Below are positions 12,511 to 39,120 of a DNA stretch of 44,021 bases, in pieces (position 1 is the stretch's first letter; every line of letters starts with the position of its first letter). The DNA is taken from the sequence record MN158213.1. One strand, written 5' to 3'. The position numbers were made by a program, and so were the translations under genes. The DNA is from Escherichia phage BEK2-2. A model generated the notes under the pieces. That model ran no database searches and was not told the DNA's origin. It saw nothing but the letters and a program-made list of their open reading frames with translations.

Positions 12511-13082
12511 TTTGAGTTTTCCCAGTCCATTTTGCGCCGCACCAGCGGGCTTTCGTAATATTCCTTGCCCTCAACTTCCACTAATGGCCAGTCATTAACA
12601 ATCACGTACGGTTCCGCGAAATCTTCAATAACGCCGTGCGCGCTTTGCGGCCCTAACGACACACCCACCAGGATAACACCGGCAACTCGACGGGTGAGAT
12701 ATTCGCGAGCGCAACGGGCCTCCACCAGTCCGCGACGAATGCCGCTGGTGGCTTTAACCTCGTAGGTCCATACGGCATCGATCACATGCTCGCGGAAGTC
12801 GGGACCGGACTTCACCTTGCGCTTGCCGACCATGATGATATCGCCGCGGTCAATGGTGTTGGCGCTAAACAGGCCGGTACGCATAAGCAAGCCTTGCGGT
12901 ATACAACTGCGCCCGCCTGCTTGCCCTTCAAGGTACATGCCTGCAAACATTTCGCCCAGCACACCGACAAGACGGCTTTGCTTGCACGCGTCAGACTTGT
13001 ATCGCCACTGGTCAAACTCGATGCTTGCAATCATTGCCGCCAGGTGGAATTGTTTACCGGTTATTTCATATTCGCCGTACAT
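12507..13082 (-). CDS. Hypothetical protein, possible PD-(D/E)XK-like nuclease fold
   Basis: ATG with GAGGG site; D...EVK arrangement (GDIIMV ... TYEVK). Weak, motif-level only. Confidence 0.45.
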   Translation of the reverse strand: MYGEYEITGKQFHLAAMIASIEFDQWRYKSDACKQSRLVGVLGEMFAGMYLEGQAGGRSCIPQGLLMRTGLFSANTIDRGDIIMVGKRKVKSGPDFREHVIDAVWTYEVKATSGIRRGLVEARCAREYLTRRVAGVILVGVSLGPQSAHGVIEDFAEPYVIVNDWPLVEVEGKEYYESPLVRRKMDWENSN

Positions 13083-13124
13083 TGTGAATCCCTCATTGAT
13101 GCGGGCCGAAGCCCGCGATTAGAA

Positions 13125-13646
13125 TTATTTCAGTGCACCAGTCACCAGTGTTTTTTCCATGTTGCGGAAGTCTTCCGGCGTCATGAGGATTTTGGATCCG
13201 TCTTCGCCGGTGAGCACGACCATAGGATGGACGTCCTGGGCTACGACGCCGAAATTGGCGGCTTTGACAGTCTTGCCCGCAGATGCCGAAGGATGCCACG
13301 CCCCAGCGGTGGCGATGGGACAACCTTTAAGGCTGTCGTATTGCGCTGCCGTTGTATCGATCTGAATCTCGTCATGCACGGTCATGTAAGACTCGCCCAG
13401 CAGGGCGGCATACGCTACCAGGTCGACGATATTGTCTTCCTGGTGCTTACGGTGCTGGCGCACCAGCTTCAGGCAGATCAAGAAGGTCCAGGCTTCTTGC
13501 TCGGTAAGGTCGCGACCGGTAAGCGCGTTAAACACGGCAGCGATCTGCTTAGCACTACGCTCCTCTTTCGCGTTGTCATAGCCGTTTTCTTTCCCGCGCT
13601 GTTCCATAGTGGTGGCGGCGTTTTTGCAGTATTCGTATGCTTTCAC
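13125..13646 (-). CDS. Hypothetical protein
   Basis: 173 aa ORF in the leftward operon; no confident family. Confidence 0.45.
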   Translation of the reverse strand: MKAYEYCKNAATTMEQRGKENGYDNAKEERSAKQIAAVFNALTGRDLTEQEAWTFLICLKLVRQHRKHQEDNIVDLVAYAALLGESYMTVHDEIQIDTTAAQYDSLKGCPIATAGAWHPSASAGKTVKAANFGVVAQDVHPMVVLTGEDGSKILMTPEDFRNMEKTLVTGALK

Positions 13647-13700
13647 AGTATTACCCTTTTAGCGAGGGGGCTGTATTGCCCCCGACACGTTTACTATAGT

Positions 13701-13722
13701 GCAACCAACCTATTGGTTGCAA
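13701..13722. promoter_or_regulatory. Perfect palindrome TGCAACCAA-N4-TTGGTTGCA (operator-like)
   Basis: Read directly; member of the recurrent TGCAACCAAT motif family. Confidence 0.5.
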
Positions 13723-14180
13723 GTGAATTTTGCAACGTTTATCGCATAAATTTTCGGGACCAGATCGCCACACGCCCGACGAATTGCCGCGATGTTCTTC
13801 GGGCAGTCTTCAATGATGACCAGTTCCGACACGTCCGCATAGCAGACCATTTTGAACACGGCGCACGCCTTAAACTCTGGCGGCGGGGTGTCGTCCAGCA
13901 TGTGGCGCATAAACAACCGACCCACGGGGAAGACCTCCAATTGCTCGGCTGTGGTTTCCCAACATTCGCGCTGCCGGTTGGTCAGATACGCTATCTTGAA
14001 GCCTTGCTCTTCATACATGCGCAGCAGCGGCAGCATATCCATGTTAAGTTCTTCGCGTACGTGCGCTTTGTGCCACTTCGCCCAAAAAGTGGATTTGGTT
14101 TTTATGCCGGGGACAAGGTCGGCACGCGCATCGCTTGATCCGTTAATAACGCCATCCAGATCACAAATCAGTAGTTTCAT
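13710..14180 (-). CDS. HAD-superfamily phosphatase / nucleotidase-like protein
   Basis: N-terminal motif I LLICDLDGVI (DxDG) typical of HAD phosphatases. Confidence 0.6.
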   Translation of the reverse strand: MKLLICDLDGVINGSSDARADLVPGIKTKSTFWAKWHKAHVREELNMDMLPLLRMYEEQGFKIAYLTNRQRECWETTAEQLEVFPVGRLFMRHMLDDTPPPEFKACAVFKMVCYADVSELVIIEDCPKNIAAIRRACGDLVPKIYAINVAKFTCNQ

Positions 14181-14401
14181 TTTAAGCTCTCAATAAGGGT
14201 GTTTCGGGCGCTGCGCGCGGTGAAGGAGTTACACACAAAATGGCAACGCTTGGTTATGATAAGCCATCCGGTAAGGTCCAGGCCCAGAAGGTATTCAGGC
14301 CGCGACACGCGACGCACACGATCGCGGCGTGGGTCGATGCAGAAGTCTTTCTGCATTTGGTCTACTACCGCGGGGTCGCGGTCAACGATTAAGATATTCA
14401 A
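14177..14401 (-). CDS. Hypothetical small protein
   Basis: ORF fills the gap between the Dam and HAD genes with small overlaps; no motif. Confidence 0.3.
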   Translation of the reverse strand: MNILIVDRDPAVVDQMQKDFCIDPRRDRVRRVSRPEYLLGLDLTGWLIITKRCHFVCNSFTARSARNTLIESLK

Positions 14402-14867
14402 GGAGTTCTCCTTCGCTCATTATTTCAATTTGTGCGCTGCCGATTGGTGGCGCTTCGTCAAATATTATCAATTGCTGGCATTTGTTATTGCTCGGCCCGA
14501 CTTCACCGGTGACGGCGTGAATGAATCTAATCCGCCAGTCCAGAAGAATTATCAGGTTTGCAGTCTTCCGGGCCAACTTCGCCCACTTCGTCGACGTGTC
14601 CTGATTCAGTAGCATGACAGTCCGTCGTCCGTGCGCAGCGCACTCTACCCACGGCAGCGGATCGGAATACGGTGGATTGCACCACTTCCACCCTTTCAAC
14701 TCCGCCCAGTCAACATCAAGCGCGCTGTGTTCCGCCGTGAAGTAACGCGGGAGCAGGTGGTTGGCATCGCTTGCAGCCATATCGTAACGGAATCGGTACT
14801 TCCGACGAAGCGGTTTAAATAAAGCTGGCGGCGTGCGCCAGCTATCTTTTTGCTCACTCTTCTGCAT
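14382..14867 (-). CDS. dam: Phage-type DNA N6-adenine methyltransferase (Dam family)
   Basis: N-terminal DSWRTPPALF and catalytic NPPY (WCNPPYS) motifs. Confidence 0.85.
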   Translation of the reverse strand: MQKSEQKDSWRTPPALFKPLRRKYRFRYDMAASDANHLLPRYFTAEHSALDVDWAELKGWKWCNPPYSDPLPWVECAAHGRRTVMLLNQDTSTKWAKLARKTANLIILLDWRIRFIHAVTGEVGPSNNKCQQLIIFDEAPPIGSAQIEIMSEGELLEYLNR

Positions 14868-14965
14868 GGTCGGTGTCTATCGCATAAAGTGGAGTCTTAC
14901 CTCCTTTATTGATGCCGCGCTGCACGCGCTTTGCTTCTTCGACACTAAGCGGACGCACGTACGCC

Positions 14966-15226
14966 TCAGCGCGCTTGCAATGCTCGCGCAGACCTTCGGC
15001 AGTGATGCGGTTTAGTGCAACGCTGGTTGTATAATCCGGTGCGCTGCATAATCCCCATCAATTCGAAAAGCAGTTCGAAGCGCTCCTCTAATTCCTTGCG
15101 CATCTTCTCCTCGCCTTCATAGCTTGCCAGGTAGGTATCAGCCAGCGCGTTCGCCCGTTCGGCTTGCTCTCGGGCTTCGAGGCATTGCGCGGCCCAGTAA
15201 TTTTTCTCTTCTTGTAAAATTTTCAT
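14966..15226 (-). CDS. Hypothetical coiled-coil protein
   Basis: Glu/Arg-rich helical ORF; true C-terminus uncertain. Confidence 0.35.
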   Translation of the reverse strand: MKILQEEKNYWAAQCLEAREQAERANALADTYLASYEGEEKMRKELEERFELLFELMGIMQRTGLYNQRCTKPHHCRRSARALQAR

Positions 15227-15307
15227 CGTGTTGTCTCCGGGTATTAAAAAGGGCGTCCAAACCGGACACCCTCAATATAATGCAACCAATCTAATTATGC
15301 AACCAAT

Positions 15308-15631
15308 TTACGAATAAAAATTTGGGTCGCGTGCAACGTCTACCAGATACAGATTGCTGATTCGGTTGCCGTAGTGGCCTGGTGTTCGCTGGCGGCACAC
15401 AACGGCGTAGCCTGGAGGAATTGTATTGCCGGTCGCGATAATCCACGCCACGCGTGCGCCAGACAGCGTCTTTCCGTTGCATTCGATACGTGTTCCGCCG
15501 TCGGCAGTATTGATGTTGCCAATCTTGCAGCCGGTGGACTTCAGACGAATGACGCCGGTTTTGCTGTCGTAGGAGAATAACTGGTTAGTCATTGCGACCG
15601 AAAAGTCGATGGCTTCGAATGTCGTATTCAT
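15308..15631 (-). CDS. HNH_3-like domain protein with substituted catalytic residues
   Basis: ARVAWIIATGNTIPPGYAVVCRQRTPGHYGNRISNLYLV resembles the HNH_3 core, but the usual D-H is replaced by C-R. Confidence 0.45.
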   Translation of the reverse strand: MNTTFEAIDFSVAMTNQLFSYDSKTGVIRLKSTGCKIGNINTADGGTRIECNGKTLSGARVAWIIATGNTIPPGYAVVCRQRTPGHYGNRISNLYLVDVARDPNFYS

Positions 15632-16323
15632 TTTAAATTTTCCTCGTTAACCGCTATCGCGAAGCCGCGCGGAGTGAGCGACCGGATTAATTTTGTGCGG
15701 GCTGATTTGCCTCCGAGGCGACTATACTGCTTCGAGTACCCTTTTTCAACGAAAACGGGTTTCTTCTCTGGCATACGGAAGCCGTTGCCGGTCCATAAGC
15801 AGGTCAGCTTCGGATATGAATCGCGGGCGTTGATGTATTCCGGGAAGAGCGGGTGTACGTCATCCTCCGGCAGATATCCCCCATACTCCCACGGGTCGAA
15901 TGAGTGATCCGGTTTGCGCCACTGGGTGGATAGCACACTGCGCGGATTCTCAATCATATATGGCACTTCGAAGAAGTCACCCAGGTAAGCGGCGATCTTC
16001 GCGGTGCGCACCGCCTTAAGCTGAAAGGCTGGGTCTTTTGCACGCTTGCGCGGGAAAGCTGGCGCACCGCTCACTGCCAGATCCGTGCACGGAGGAAACG
16101 CATAGATGATATCTGGCGTACCGAAATCGCCATTCATCGCACGGTCTACAAAGTCCGGATCGATAAACTCATTGCGATAGCGGATTCCGCGACCATAAAT
16201 CCGGTAGTCAAGGTATGACCCGTGATCAGCTTCGGAGTAGTTGAAGCAATAACACTTATGCCCCATCTCGGCAGCACGCTCAATCATCAAGCCGCTGCCG
16301 TCAAACAATGACCAGATTATCAT
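15628..16323 (-). CDS. Short DNA cytosine-5 methyltransferase-like protein
   Basis: Motif I-like LFDGSG, motif IV-like FPPCTDLAVSG (catalytic Cys), motif VI-like IENP; only 231 aa, so the target-recognition region must be minimal. Confidence 0.5.
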   Translation of the reverse strand: MIIWSLFDGSGLMIERAAEMGHKCYCFNYSEADHGSYLDYRIYGRGIRYRNEFIDPDFVDRAMNGDFGTPDIIYAFPPCTDLAVSGAPAFPRKRAKDPAFQLKAVRTAKIAAYLGDFFEVPYMIENPRSVLSTQWRKPDHSFDPWEYGGYLPEDDVHPLFPEYINARDSYPKLTCLWTGNGFRMPEKKPVFVEKGYSKQYSRLGGKSARTKLIRSLTPRGFAIAVNEENLK

Positions 16324-17744
16324 TTGCGCGCCTTTTTAGCTTTCATGTATTCCATCAAGTCGTCCTGAATATCTCGCTTGCTGTCGCGACGCTCGGCGAC
16401 CAATTCGTCCAGTGTCCCGCGCGCCTGGATAATGTAGACGAATACCGGACGGGGGTGTCCTGCCTGCATCTGGCGAACCGGCCCGATACGCTCAACGATC
16501 TGCGAAAAGTGCTCAAAGTTCCAGGTATCGGAGAAGATTGCCAGGTGATGTCCGCCGTCCTGCAAGTTAAGGCCGTGGCCTGCCGATGCCGGGTGTGCAA
16601 ACATGATGGGGATCTCGCCCCTGTTCCACGCTTCCATATCCTTATTGCCCTGCTTACCCTCACCCAACGCGACGCCGTGCGGAAATTTCTTCTTAAGACG
16701 TGCCAGGTCATGCTTATACTGATACGCAACGAGCAACGGCGCGCCGTTCAACTCCTCCACGATACTTTCCAGTGCGTCCAGCTTCGCGTCGTGAATCTTC
16801 ACCCACTCGTCGGTCCGTTCGCCGTCTTCGTCCACCTTATACACAGCGCCGGAAGCAAGCTGAAGGCACTTAATTGTCTTCGATGCCGCGTTCGCCGCTT
16901 CCACTGTTCCGCTTTCCAGTTCGGCAAATAGCTCGCTTTCAAACTGGTCGTAAATCTTGCGGGCTTTCTTCGGCAGGTCCACAACAACCGGCGTATAGAT
17001 TGGCTTGTCGCACCCGAAGTATTCAGCCGCGTCAACGGTGAGGGATACATCTGACAGACGTTGTTGTATCTCTTTCTCGGAGTTCTTTAGCGGAGCGTGC
17101 TGCATAGTGAAGCTGCCCGGCTTAACAGGCTTGCTAATGAACCAGCGGTCGGTAAATGCCTTATAGCTACTGCCGAGGCGTTCGCCACCGTCGACAAACC
17201 ACGTCTGACCCCATAAGTCTTTCAGCCCGTTGGGTGCGGGTGTGCCTGTAAGGTTAATCCAGCGCTTGACGTGTTTATGTGCAATCGCTGCCAGTGCGCG
17301 GGCGCGCTTGCTCCCCTGCTTGCTACGATAGCCTTTCAGCTTAGTCGATTCATCGGCAACAACGACCGTAAAGGGCCACGCATCGCCGTAATAGTCGACC
17401 AGCCACTCAACCACATCGTAGTTAACACAAACTACGTTAGCGTCGCTCTCAAGCGCAGCGATGCGGTCCTTCTCTGGTCCGGTGCCGTCTACTACCAGCA
17501 GGGCAGGGAAGCGCCATTTTTCTTGCTCCGGGGGCCATGTACCGGACGCAACTCGCAGCGGGGCCAGCACCAGTACGCGGTCCTCCTGGTTGGACAGGAT
17601 ACCCGTCTGGAACATTTTATTCAGCGCCCACATAGTCGCGCCGGTTTTACCCGACCCCATTGTCGCCCATATATTGCATCGCTTATGCTTGAGGATGAAC
17701 GCGGTTATCAACTTCTGATATTCGCGACGTCGGAAACGTGCCAT
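16320..17744 (-). CDS. SNF2-family ATP-dependent helicase
   Basis: Walker A ATMGSGKT, DExx box VVADESTKLK, SNF2-type LTGTPAPNGLKDLW; start placed at MARFRRRE (ORF track extends to 17834). Confidence 0.8.
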   Translation of the reverse strand: MARFRRREYQKLITAFILKHKRCNIWATMGSGKTGATMWALNKMFQTGILSNQEDRVLVLAPLRVASGTWPPEQEKWRFPALLVVDGTGPEKDRIAALESDANVVCVNYDVVEWLVDYYGDAWPFTVVVADESTKLKGYRSKQGSKRARALAAIAHKHVKRWINLTGTPAPNGLKDLWGQTWFVDGGERLGSSYKAFTDRWFISKPVKPGSFTMQHAPLKNSEKEIQQRLSDVSLTVDAAEYFGCDKPIYTPVVVDLPKKARKIYDQFESELFAELESGTVEAANAASKTIKCLQLASGAVYKVDEDGERTDEWVKIHDAKLDALESIVEELNGAPLLVAYQYKHDLARLKKKFPHGVALGEGKQGNKDMEAWNRGEIPIMFAHPASAGHGLNLQDGGHHLAIFSDTWNFEHFSQIVERIGPVRQMQAGHPRPVFVYIIQARGTLDELVAERRDSKRDIQDDLMEYMKAKKARK

Positions 17745-18010: not shown

Positions 18011-18183
18011 TTATTTTTGCTCTGCGCGGTAGCGGCGCTGCCGTTCGCGCTCTTTTTTATTGCGGCACGATTTGCACTCGGCCCGATACCCGTCCGGGCT
18101 GCGTGCAGTCTTACCGGTGTATTTGTGGAACTGGGATAGCGGTTTAACGCAGCCGCAATTACTGCAACGTTTTTCTTCAATCA
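18011..18183 (-). CDS. Small zinc-ribbon protein (CxxC ... CxxC)
   Basis: MIEEKRCSNCGC...ECKSCRNKK; GAGGA site; start placed at MIEEK (ORF track extends to 18256). Confidence 0.45.
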
Positions 18184-18224
18184 TCTCTAAAATCCTCGAT
18201 ATGGCTAACCGGCACACTATACCG

Positions 18225-18503
18225 CTATGCGACCAATTCAGCAACCAATAAATCACAGTCGGCGATGTTGTCTATAACGCGAACGTCAGCGCCGCGGCGG
18301 GCCATCCGCTCATGTTCACGTACCTGGTGCGGCTTCGGTTTTCCTCCTGGGCGCTTCACTTCGACGAACACTATTTTGCCGTTGATGATGATAATCAGGT
18401 CGGGCGCACCTGCGCGCCCCTCCCAGGCCATTTTGCGGCAGAATCCGCCTACCTCTTTCACCCGTCGCATCAGGTGACTTTGAATCTTGCCTTCTGGTGT
18501 CAT
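18225..18503 (-). CDS. VRR-NUC domain nuclease
   Basis: GAPDLIIIINGKIVFVEVKRPG matches the VRR-NUC PD-(D/E)XK core; start overlaps the polymerase stop (TAATG). Confidence 0.75.
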   Translation of the reverse strand: MTPEGKIQSHLMRRVKEVGGFCRKMAWEGRAGAPDLIIIINGKIVFVEVKRPGGKPKPHQVREHERMARRGADVRVIDNIADCDLLVAELVA

Positions 18504-21793: not shown

Positions 21794-21883
21794 TTTCCAA
21801 TTCCTCATTTTCACATGTATCGGGGTTATTGGAAGCCACCCCGTTCGGCTTGGTTGCTAATTTACTTGGTTGCGCCTAAGCGG

Positions 21884-28037: not shown

Positions 28038-28066
28038 TTGCGTCCACCCCGGCACCAGGCTATATT
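28038..28066 (+). promoter_or_regulatory. Putative promoter TTGCGT-N17-TATATT overlapping two ATTGGTTGC motifs
   Basis: Read directly; 28 bp upstream of the 28095 gene. Confidence 0.35.
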
Positions 28067-28094
28067 GGTTGCACACCAACATGAGGACTGAACA

Positions 28095-31457: not shown

Positions 31458-31661
31458 GCTTGACTTGCAACCAACATAGACGCCATACTGCGACCAACCA
31501 ACGAGAGGAGTATTACACTATGGCACGTAATGATATTTGGGTATTGGCAATCTGGTCCACCGCAGCATTTATCGGTATGGTTATTTGCGAATTGCTATAA
31601 CCCGCCGCAATAGGGACCGTGGTATATTGTCCTCGGTACCATAATCTGGAAGTGAATTAAT

Positions 31662-39077: not shown

Positions 39078-39120
39078 GTCGGTGTGCAACCAATATATTG
39101 CAACCAATACACGGATTGCA
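39078..39120. promoter_or_regulatory. Divergent control region with two TGCAACCAAT motifs
   Basis: gtgTGCAACCAATatatTGCAACCAATacacggattgcaagc read directly between the reverse cassette and the scaffold gene. Confidence 0.45.

What the first reader, a model, noticed from the sequence alone, without database searches (positions are those of the whole stretch)
14382..16323. Clustered DNA-modification genes: Dam methyltransferase, degenerate HNH-like protein and a minimal C5-methyltransferase-like protein
Within 2 kb the leftward operon encodes a confident phage Dam (NPPY), a 107 aa HNH_3-like protein whose catalytic D-H is replaced by C-R, and an overlapping 231 aa protein with C5-methyltransferase motifs I, IV (PPC) and VI (ENP) but far too short for a conventional enzyme with a full target-recognition domain. 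The translational coupling of the HNH-like and methyltransferase-like genes suggests they act together, for instance the inactive HNH domain supplying DNA recognition to a minimal catalytic core. Adjacent HAD phosphatase and unknown genes could also belong to a nucleotide-modification pathway.
Basis: partly seen in the sequence, partly recalled or inferred. Interest (0 to 1): 0.5.

Follow-up and report, generated by a model that had tools for sequence, protein, structure and literature searches.

The report
Known Dhillonvirus Dam/Dcm methylases, dead HNH
This stretch of an E. coli phage (genus Dhillonvirus) carries two ordinary, already annotated DNA methylase genes plus a conserved, catalytically dead remnant of a homing-endonuclease gene, and nothing indicates that the remnant and the small cytosine methylase work as a pair.

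Summary
The window is a Dhillonvirus genome, 92-94% identical in DNA to over 140 GenBank phages. On the minus strand it encodes a PF05869 Dam with an NPPY motif, a 107-aa HNH-like protein that lacks the catalytic His, and a 231-aa protein with FxGxG, PPC and ENP motifs.

So the short enzyme most likely works alone. The HNH-like gene is confined to Dhillonvirus and, distantly, Eiauvirus. It is a truncated version of the HNH-AP2 homing endonucleases that sit intact near dcm in some other phages, and it evolves under purifying selection (dN/dS 0.07-0.24). The ATGA overlaps occur along the whole operon, so they are not evidence of a partnership. No hypermodification pathway showed up. GenBank already annotates these genes this way, so interest is low.

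The parts
15628..16323 (-). Dcm-like C5 cytosine DNA methyltransferase, 231 aa. Motif I F7-D-G-S-G11 is at nt 16305-16291, catalytic P77-P78-C79 at nt 16095-16087, and E125-N-P127 at nt 15951-15943.
15308..15631 (-). 107-aa catalytically degenerate HNH-like protein: the N-terminal beta domain plus HNH core of an HNH-AP2 homing endonuclease, with no AP2 domain. A59-R60 replaces H-R and C79-R80 replaces D-H (nt 15397-15392).
15246..15306 (-). Intergenic module: two direct copies of TTGGTTGCA (15306-15298 and 15289-15281), then a hairpin GGGUGUCC-GGUUU-GGACGCCC with a U5 run (15273-15246). It looks like a terminator and/or promoter separating helicase-dcm-HNH-like from the downstream genes.
   Evidence: The element is almost fully conserved in the divergent relative L007 and has three repeat copies in PaulFeyerabend. 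Its function is inferred.
14854..15226 (-). phrog_10530 gene (labelled 'DNA ligase' in some records, function unknown; 142-154 aa in relatives), disrupted in this window by a 1-nt insertion near 15034 and shortened by a 93-nt in-frame deletion near 14952.
   Evidence: The 86-aa ORF matches only profile positions 1-65 of 154.
14382..14867 (-). Phage-type N6-adenine DNA methyltransferase (Dam family PF05869), 161 aa, with NPPY at nt 14678-14667.
   Evidence: Pfam PF05869 at E 2e-35. PHROG 111 at 7.4e-55. TIGR01712 scores 85 bits, below its cut-off of 97.
14177..14401 (-). 74-aa conserved protein of unknown function. It overlaps the Dam gene by 20 nt and the HAD gene by 4 nt.
   Evidence: PHROG 10685 at 4.8e-45. 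No Pfam or NCBIfam hit.
13710..14180 (-). HAD-superfamily phosphatase, 156 aa (DLDGV motif), neighbouring gene.
   Evidence: PHROG 415 at 4.6e-36. Pfam Acid_phosphat_B scores 24.4 bits, below its cut-off of 27.
13125..13646 (-). DUF6378 protein, 173 aa, neighbouring gene of unknown function.
   Evidence: Pfam PF19905 at 8.2e-10. PHROG 9871 at 9.9e-110.
16320..17744 (-). SNF2-family DNA helicase, the upstream gene of the same overlapping gene string. Its stop overlaps the dcm start as ATGA.
   Evidence: Pfam SNF2-rel_dom at 5.6e-11. PHROG 62 at 1.4e-156. The start at 17744 is inferred from the 475-aa annotated orthologs.

Best explanation
This is the replication and DNA-metabolism arm of a Dhillonvirus phage. 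It carries two stand-alone ('orphan') DNA methyltransferases. One is a 161-aa PF05869 Dam-family N6-adenine methylase. The other is a 231-aa 'mini-Dcm' C5-cytosine methylase with a full catalytic core (SAM-binding FxGxG, catalytic Pro-Cys, ENP) but only a vestigial target-recognition region, an architecture closest in fold to the DNMT3 catalytic domain. Inferred: both enzymes methylate replicating phage DNA. By analogy with its relative in phage K42, the Dcm acts at CCWGG, which occurs 158 times in this window. That would protect the phage from methylation-sensitive restriction in hosts lacking the matching methylase, at the cost of being a trigger for retron Ec86/Eco1. The 107-aa gene overlapping the dcm stop codon is a truncated, catalytically dead descendant of an HNH-AP2 homing endonuclease gene of the kind found intact near dcm in some other phages. 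It has been kept under purifying selection across the genus, so it probably has some non-nuclease role, but the methylase most likely does not need it.
For: Identity of the window: 92-94% nt identity to 145 Dhillonvirus records, whose annotations already read 'Dcm-like C5 cytosine methyltransferase', 'Dam-like N6-adenine methyltransferase' and 'putative homing endonuclease'. Dam. Dcm fold and motifs. PF00145 is the only Pfam family hit repeatedly by family members (13 of 24 at E<=1, best 1.3e-6; 4 of 60 at E<=0.01). Activity of a homolog: in phage K42 (a KarlJaspers strain), mutations disrupting the 711-bp dcm or lying just upstream of it allow escape from retron Ec86. Dcm alone is toxic when Ec86 is present. 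LC-MS shows 5mC on msDNA, and mutating the msDNA CCTGG abolishes defence. The proposed catalytic and binding residues are C82, E128, K175 and K176. KarlJaspers Dcm is 54% identical over full length, and C82, E128 and K175 align with C79, E125 and K172 of the window protein. Independence from the HNH-like gene. HNH-like protein as a truncated, dead member of PHROG 99. Purifying selection: dN/dS 0.07 against PaulFeyerabend and 0.24 against the divergent L007, compared with about 0.03 for its neighbours. Its length is fixed at 107 aa in nearly all 162 records. CCWGG count is 158 against 68 expected, so the site is not avoided.
Against: The window protein itself scores below every Pfam and NCBIfam threshold. 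Family profiles do not find C5-MTases in PDB by sequence. Membership therefore rests on fold, motifs, transitive Pfam hits and the experiment on a 54%-identical relative. Neither activity nor specificity has been measured for any Dhillonvirus enzyme. In the K42 study, msDNA from a dcm+ host had little 5mC without the phage enzyme, so the phage enzyme's specificity or substrate preference may differ from host Dcm. A degenerate HNH-like homolog (40% identity) also sits next to a conventional 330-aa C5-MTase in Edwardsiella phage eiAU. That is a weak hint of a conserved association, though shared ancestry of the gene module explains it just as well.
Confidence: 0.8

Rival explanations
1. One reading: the dead HNH domain is an obligatory DNA-recognition or targeting subunit for the minimal C5 methylase, and the two translationally coupled genes form a two-component enzyme.
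For: The two genes overlap as ATGA. The methylase has almost no TRD: only 177-188 of 231 residues align to C5-MTases of 291-418 residues. The HNH-like gene is under purifying selection. In eiAU a degenerate HNH-like homolog also neighbours a C5-MTase, of a different type.
Against: The methylase family is about ten times more widespread than the HNH-like family, and 57 of 65 non-Dhillonvirus loci have no HNH relative nearby. The K42 Dcm acts alone and has no HNH-like neighbour in KarlJaspers. The 107-aa protein lacks the AP2 DNA-binding domain. ATGA overlaps are generic in this operon. In eiAU the neighbouring methylase is a full-length enzyme that should need no helper.
Confidence: 0.08
2. The 107-aa ORF is only a decaying homing-endonuclease pseudogene with no function.
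For: Catalytic residues and the AP2 domain are lost. Free-standing HNH genes are sporadic near dcm in other phages. It evolves faster than its neighbours.
Against: The reading frame is intact at 107 aa in nearly all 162 records and in relatives down to 63% identity. dN/dS is 0.07-0.24. A 40%-identical, equally degenerate homolog persists in Eiauvirus.
Confidence: 0.1
3. The 231-aa enzyme installs something other than 5mC on phage DNA (for example C5-carboxymethyl), or acts mainly on another substrate such as ssDNA, RNA or host DNA.
Against: LC-MS on the K42 relative detected 5-methylcytosine. The best structural matches are dsDNA C5-MTases. No accessory modification genes turned up among the neighbouring genes I scanned.
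Confidence: 0.05

Closest known systems
Dcm of Escherichia phage K42 / KarlJaspers (Drexlerviridae, Hanrivervirus), the trigger of retron Ec86/Eco1
   Same: Same protein family and length class (236 against 231 aa), 54% identity over the full length, with the catalytic Cys, the ENP Glu and K175 conserved. Both are stand-alone phage genes.
   Different: K176 of the phage enzyme is L173 here. The genomic neighbourhood differs: there is no HNH-like gene in KarlJaspers. Activity and specificity of the Dhillonvirus enzyme are untested.
DNMT3A/DNMT3B catalytic domain, M.HhaI, M.HaeIII (canonical C5-MTases, Pfam PF00145)
   Different: It is 60-100 residues shorter, and the segment between the last core strand and the C-terminal helices is about 30 residues, so there is no conventional TRD. 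Sequence similarity is below Pfam's threshold for the window protein.
E. coli Dcm / M.EcoRII (CCWGG C5-methylase)
   Same: Presumed target site and product, inferred from the K42 work.
   Different: From my own knowledge, E. coli Dcm is about twice as long (472 aa) and has a large TRD. There is no detectable sequence match here.
Phage Dam family PF05869 / TIGR01712 (phage T1-type N6-adenine methylases)
   Same: Clear Pfam membership and the NPPY catalytic motif.
   Different: It scores below the TIGR01712 equivalog cut-off (85 against 97 bits). GATC specificity is assumed, not shown. From memory, some members of this family are reported to be non-specific adenine methylases.
I-HmuI and PHROG 99 HNH-AP2 free-standing homing endonucleases
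   Different: The catalytic His/Asp positions are replaced, the C-terminal AP2 domain is absent, and the gene is fixed and conserved in a whole genus rather than sporadic.

Membership tests
C5 cytosine DNA methyltransferase (PF00145-type) | Motif I FxGxG (SAM binding) | tested here: met
   F7-D-G9-S10-G11 is invariant in 24 homologs and aligns to motif I of M.HaeIII. It is less strictly conserved in the 60 most diverse members.
C5 cytosine DNA methyltransferase (PF00145-type) | Motif IV Pro-Cys with the catalytic cysteine | tested here: met
   P77-P78-C79. C79 is invariant in 60 diverse representatives. It aligns to the PPC of M.HaeIII and to C82 of K42 Dcm.
C5 cytosine DNA methyltransferase (PF00145-type) | Motif VI ENV with the Glu that contacts the target cytosine | tested here: met
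   E125-N126-P127, with E125 and P127 invariant. This is E128 of K42 Dcm. It is an ENP variant rather than ENV.
C5 cytosine DNA methyltransferase (PF00145-type) | Fold most similar to solved C5-MTases | tested here: met
C5 cytosine DNA methyltransferase (PF00145-type) | Score above the Pfam PF00145 gathering threshold | tested here: not met
   The window protein has no Pfam hit at E<=1. Of its homologs, 13 of 24 hit PF00145 at E<=1 (best 1.3e-6) and 4 of 60 at E<=0.01. Family profiles against PDB sequences give only E 0.5 to M.HaeIII.
C5 cytosine DNA methyltransferase (PF00145-type) | Sizeable target-recognition domain between motifs VIII and IX | tested here: not met
C5 cytosine DNA methyltransferase (PF00145-type) | Formation of 5-methylcytosine in DNA, and its sequence specificity | not testable with these tools
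   Reported for the related K42 enzyme, whose KarlJaspers ortholog is 54% identical to the window protein: LC-MS 5mC on msDNA and dependence on CCTGG. Not measured for any Dhillonvirus enzyme that I could find.
Phage Dam (PF05869) | Pfam gathering threshold and the (D/N)PPY catalytic motif | tested here: met
   122.4 bits against a cut-off of 28.1. NPPY is at residues 64-67.
Phage Dam (PF05869) | Equivalog-level match (TIGR01712) and GATC specificity | tested here: not met
   85 bits against a cut-off of 97. Specificity is not testable here. GATC is neither enriched nor avoided: 155 observed against 163 expected.
HNH_3 / I-HmuI-type homing endonuclease | HNH beta-beta-alpha core fold with an N-terminal beta domain | tested here: inconclusive
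HNH_3 / I-HmuI-type homing endonuclease | Catalytic His (general base) and the preceding Asp, and the His of the HR motif | tested here: not met
   A59-R60 and C79-R80 stand where intact relatives have H-R and D-H. Pfam HNH_3 scores 13.1 bits against a cut-off of 24.8.
HNH_3 / I-HmuI-type homing endonuclease | C-terminal DNA-binding module (AP2 or HTH) and sporadic, mobile distribution | tested here: not met
   The protein ends at PHROG 99 position 198, whereas intact neighbours of dcm extend to about 270 and include the AP2-like part. The gene is present in all Dhillonvirus records found.

The most novel reading that the evidence does not exclude
The genus-wide, catalytically dead, AP2-less HNH remnant has been exapted. 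This would also cover its equally degenerate homolog next to a different type of C5-methylase in Eiauvirus. One possible role is as an accessory factor that targets or regulates phage cytosine methylation. Another is as a small DNA-binding regulator, for example at the TTGGTTGCA repeats that begin 2 nt downstream of its stop codon and recur in other intergenic regions of this genome.
Probability: 0.1. Interest if true: 0.45.

Novelty: already known. Interest (0 to 1): 0.15.

Why it matters
It matters little as a discovery. These genes are annotated the same way in over a hundred GenBank Dhillonvirus genomes, and the mini-Dcm family already has a published activity and a published role as the trigger of retron Ec86/Eco1. 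Two modest points remain open. First, how a C5-methylase of about 230 aa with almost no target-recognition domain reads a 5-bp site is structurally unexplained, and this family could be a compact tool enzyme. Second, a homing-endonuclease remnant kept under selection across a whole genus is a tidy candidate case of domestication.

Tried and rejected
- Direct sequence searches with the 231-aa protein gave nothing significant: Pfam, NCBIfam and phmmer against PDB.
- Family profiles against PDB sequences gave only E 0.5 to M.HaeIII. With a more diverse 60-sequence profile I got only non-significant Rossmann-type hits.
- hhalign of the family profile against the single eiAU C5-MTase sequence was uninformative, at probability 1%. 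I ran no further search on building a canonical C5-MTase profile.
- A profile of the HNH-like family found nothing in PDB by sequence.
- The consensus terminator scan did not list the hairpin after the HNH-like gene. I read it from the sequence and folded it; its z-score against shuffles is only -1.3, so the case rests on conservation.
- One accession guess was wrong: MZ501089 is KarlGJung, not KarlJaspers.
- I considered and rejected a hypermodification pathway involving the HAD and DUF6378 genes. Those genes gave only generic matches, and the BASEL papers describe Dhillonvirus phages as less resistant to restriction than the hypermodified Queuovirinae and only moderately sensitive to the RM systems tested.
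- Literature searches found no methylome data for any Dhillonvirus.
Full report
**What the window is.** Nucleotides 13000-17000 match 162 phage records, and 145 of them cover at least 80% of the query, mostly at 90-95% identity. Nearly all are Escherichia or Shigella phages of the genus Dhillonvirus: SO-1, mckay, PaulFeyerabend/Bas15, SECphi18, HK578 and others. The GenBank annotations of these relatives already read 'Dcm-like C5 cytosine methyltransferase', 'putative homing endonuclease' or 'HNH endonuclease', and 'Dam-like N6-adenine methyltransferase', in the same order and with the same lengths as in the window.

**Gene map of the region (minus strand).**

| Coordinates | Product | Main evidence |
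|---|---|---|
| 16320-17744 | SNF2 helicase | Pfam SNF2-rel_dom, PHROG 62 |
| 15628-16323 | 231-aa Dcm-like protein | PHROG 757, E 3.8e-82; no Pfam hit |
| 15308-15631 | 107-aa HNH-like protein | PHROG 99, E 1.5e-16; Pfam HNH_3 13.1 bits, cut-off 24.8 |
| 15246-15306 | intergenic module | see below |
| 14854-15226 | phrog_10530 gene, disrupted here | see below |
| 14382-14867 | Dam, 161 aa | PF05869, E 2e-35; NPPY at residues 64-67 |
| 14177-14401 | 74-aa ORF | PHROG 10685 |
| 13710-14180 | HAD phosphatase | PHROG 415 |
| 13125-13646 | DUF6378 protein | Pfam PF19905 |

- Stop and start codons overlap as ATGA at helicase/dcm, dcm/HNH-like and 74-aa/HAD. Dam and the 74-aa ORF overlap by 20 nt. 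Overlap is therefore the rule in this gene string, not a mark of one particular pair.

**The 231-aa protein is a real but very short C5-methyltransferase.**
- It has 2885 relatives at E<=1e-3 among 90%-identity clusters, and the listed ones are nearly all 225-250 aa. It also has 813 relatives among 50%-identity representatives and is encoded in 1510 phage records from Escherichia, Klebsiella, Salmonella, Vibrio, Arthrobacter and other hosts.
- F7-x-G-S-G11, P77-P78-C79 and E125-N-P127 are invariant in 24 homologs. C79, E125, P127, K172 and W177 stay invariant in 60 diverse representatives. The window protein keeps all of them.
- Sequence methods are weak. The window protein hits no Pfam or NCBIfam model. 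PF00145 is the only family hit repeatedly by homologs: 13 of 24 at E<=1 with a best of 1.3e-6, and 4 of 60 at E<=0.01. A family profile aligns motifs I and IV to M.HaeIII only at E 0.5, and a broader profile finds no C5-MTase in PDB.
- Only about 30 residues separate the last core strand from the C-terminal helices.

**Published evidence that this family works alone.** The source is bioRxiv 10.1101/2023.08.16.553469, on phage K42, a strain of KarlJaspers.
- Escape mutants of retron Ec86 all carried mutations that disrupt the 711-bp dcm or lie just upstream of its start codon.
- Dcm expressed alone from pBAD was toxic only in cells carrying Ec86.
- LC-MS showed increased 5mC on msDNA. A C82A/E128A/K175A/K176A mutant was inactive.
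- Changing the msDNA CCTGG site abolished defence.
- Later papers cite this as established.
- The 236-aa KarlJaspers Dcm is 54% identical to the window protein end to end. C82, E128 and K175 align with C79, E125 and K172, and K176 corresponds to L173 here.
- KarlJaspers has no HNH-like gene beside dcm.

**The 107-aa protein.**
- Its relatives are few: 6 clusters and 162 phage records, which is the Dhillonvirus set plus four Edwardsiella phages at about 40% identity and one Xanthomonas phage.
- Intact relatives read AHRIxW...(I/L)DH(I/E)(D/N)xxRxxNRIxN (most continue LR). Examples are an unannotated ORF in Xanthomonas phage NR08, with Pfam HNH_3 at 7e-12, and 167-195-aa PHROG 99 proteins in other dcm-bearing contigs. 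The Dhillonvirus protein has A59-R60 and C79-R80 instead. It also stops at PHROG 99 position 198, so it lacks the AP2-like C-terminal domain of the intact proteins.
- It is not decaying. It is 107 aa in nearly all records, including a relative with 63% identity that keeps the same synteny. dN/dS is 0.07 against PaulFeyerabend and 0.24 against that divergent relative, compared with about 0.03 for helicase, dcm, Dam and HAD.

**Test of the proposed partnership.**
- I examined 80 viral contigs that encode a dcm relative. The 15 Dhillonvirus-type loci all have the HNH-like gene immediately downstream. Of the other 65, 57 have no HNH relative within 3 kb.
- The remaining 8 have intact HNH-AP2 endonuclease genes at various distances. 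In three of them the gene lies about 400 nt downstream of dcm.
- This is the pattern expected of free-standing homing endonuclease genes that land near dcm from time to time. One such gene was truncated, inactivated and retained in the Dhillonvirus ancestor.
- The one observation pointing the other way comes from Edwardsiella phage eiAU. There the order is helicase, degenerate HNH-like gene, a conventional 330-aa C5-MTase (PHROG 363), then Dam. Because the two genera share this whole module, common ancestry explains it, but a functional link is not excluded.
- JohannBuxtorf_Bas84 is nearly identical to the window here. It carries a 56-nt frameshifting deletion in dcm and an intact, 100%-identical HNH-like gene. 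This shows dcm is dispensable and is sometimes lost.

**Likely function (inferred).**
- Both methylases probably modify progeny DNA. The window has 158 CCWGG sites, against 68 expected from a first-order Markov model, and 155 GATC sites against 163 expected.
- From established knowledge, Dcm methylation blocks EcoRII-type cleavage. A phage-borne Dcm would therefore help in dcm-lacking hosts, while exposing the phage to retron Eco1.
- The specificity of the Dhillonvirus enzyme is untested. In the K42 study, msDNA from a dcm+ host carried little 5mC without the phage enzyme, so the phage and host enzymes may not be equivalent.

**Other genes.** The HAD, DUF6378, 74-aa and 191-aa genes gave only generic or unknown-function matches. 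I found no sign of a base-hypermodification pathway among the genes I scanned. The BASEL papers describe Dhillonvirus as less restriction-resistant than the hypermodified Queuovirinae and only moderately sensitive to the RM systems tested.

**Verdict.** The features are already known and annotated. The residual novelty is limited to the possible exaptation of the dead HNH remnant and the unexplained site recognition by a methylase with almost no TRD.

Noticed in passing
window 14854-15226 (minus strand); insertion near 15034, deletion junction near 14952: The gene between the HNH-like gene and Dam (phrog_10530, 142-154 aa in relatives, labelled 'DNA ligase' in some records without support) carries a 1-nt insertion (GGATTATAC against GGATATAC) that shifts the frame. 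It also has a 93-nt in-frame deletion. The downstream frame stays open up to the Dam start, so this is either a recent mutation or a sequencing error.
   Followed up: partly
window 15246-15306, and also 13700-13721, 18228-18248, 21850-21874, 28065-28073, 31466-31497, 39085-39107: The motif TTGGTTGCA occurs 12 times exactly and 16 times with one mismatch, against 11.7 expected in total; none of 100 shuffles reached 28. It often comes as pairs 12-23 nt apart in intergenic DNA shortly upstream of start codons. The pair after the HNH-like gene is followed by a hairpin plus U5 that is almost fully conserved even in a relative whose neighbouring proteins are only 63-79% identical. It may be a phage-specific promoter or operator element.
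   Followed up: partly
L006 (Escherichia phage JohannBuxtorf_Bas84) 1865-2504: A near-identical relative has a 56-nt frameshifting deletion in dcm just after the Pro-Cys motif, while the HNH-like gene downstream is intact. Truncated dcm products of 148-195 aa also appear among the closest database clusters. This suggests recurrent loss of dcm, which is what selection by Dcm-sensing defences such as retron Eco1 would produce.
   Followed up: partly
whole window: CCWGG is strongly over-represented: 158 sites against 68 expected from a first-order Markov model (z = 11). GGCC is under-represented, at 171 against 227 (z = -3.9). Codon usage and host-like very-short-patch repair bias were not controlled for.
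   Followed up: no
L005 (Edwardsiella phage eiAU) 3360-5382: A 151-aa, equally degenerate HNH-like homolog (about 40% identity) sits between the helicase and a conventional 330-aa C5-methyltransferase, which is followed by a Dam gene. The dead HNH remnant therefore predates the split of Eiauvirus and Dhillonvirus and neighbours a C5-MTase of a different type in each.
   Followed up: partly
L054 4058-4603, L067 4116-4622, L068 4115-4615 (IMG/VR contigs of about 50-53 kb): Intact PHROG 99 HNH-AP2 homing endonuclease genes lie about 400 nt downstream of the dcm homolog in three otherwise different contigs. The dcm neighbourhood may be a recurrent homing site, or dcm may hitch-hike with such genes.
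   Followed up: partly
window 18011-18256 (minus strand): An 81-aa zinc-ribbon-like protein upstream of the helicase matches PHROG 5558 'Lar-like restriction alleviation protein' at E 1.6e-18. A possible anti-restriction gene therefore lies in the same arm as the two methylases.
   Followed up: no
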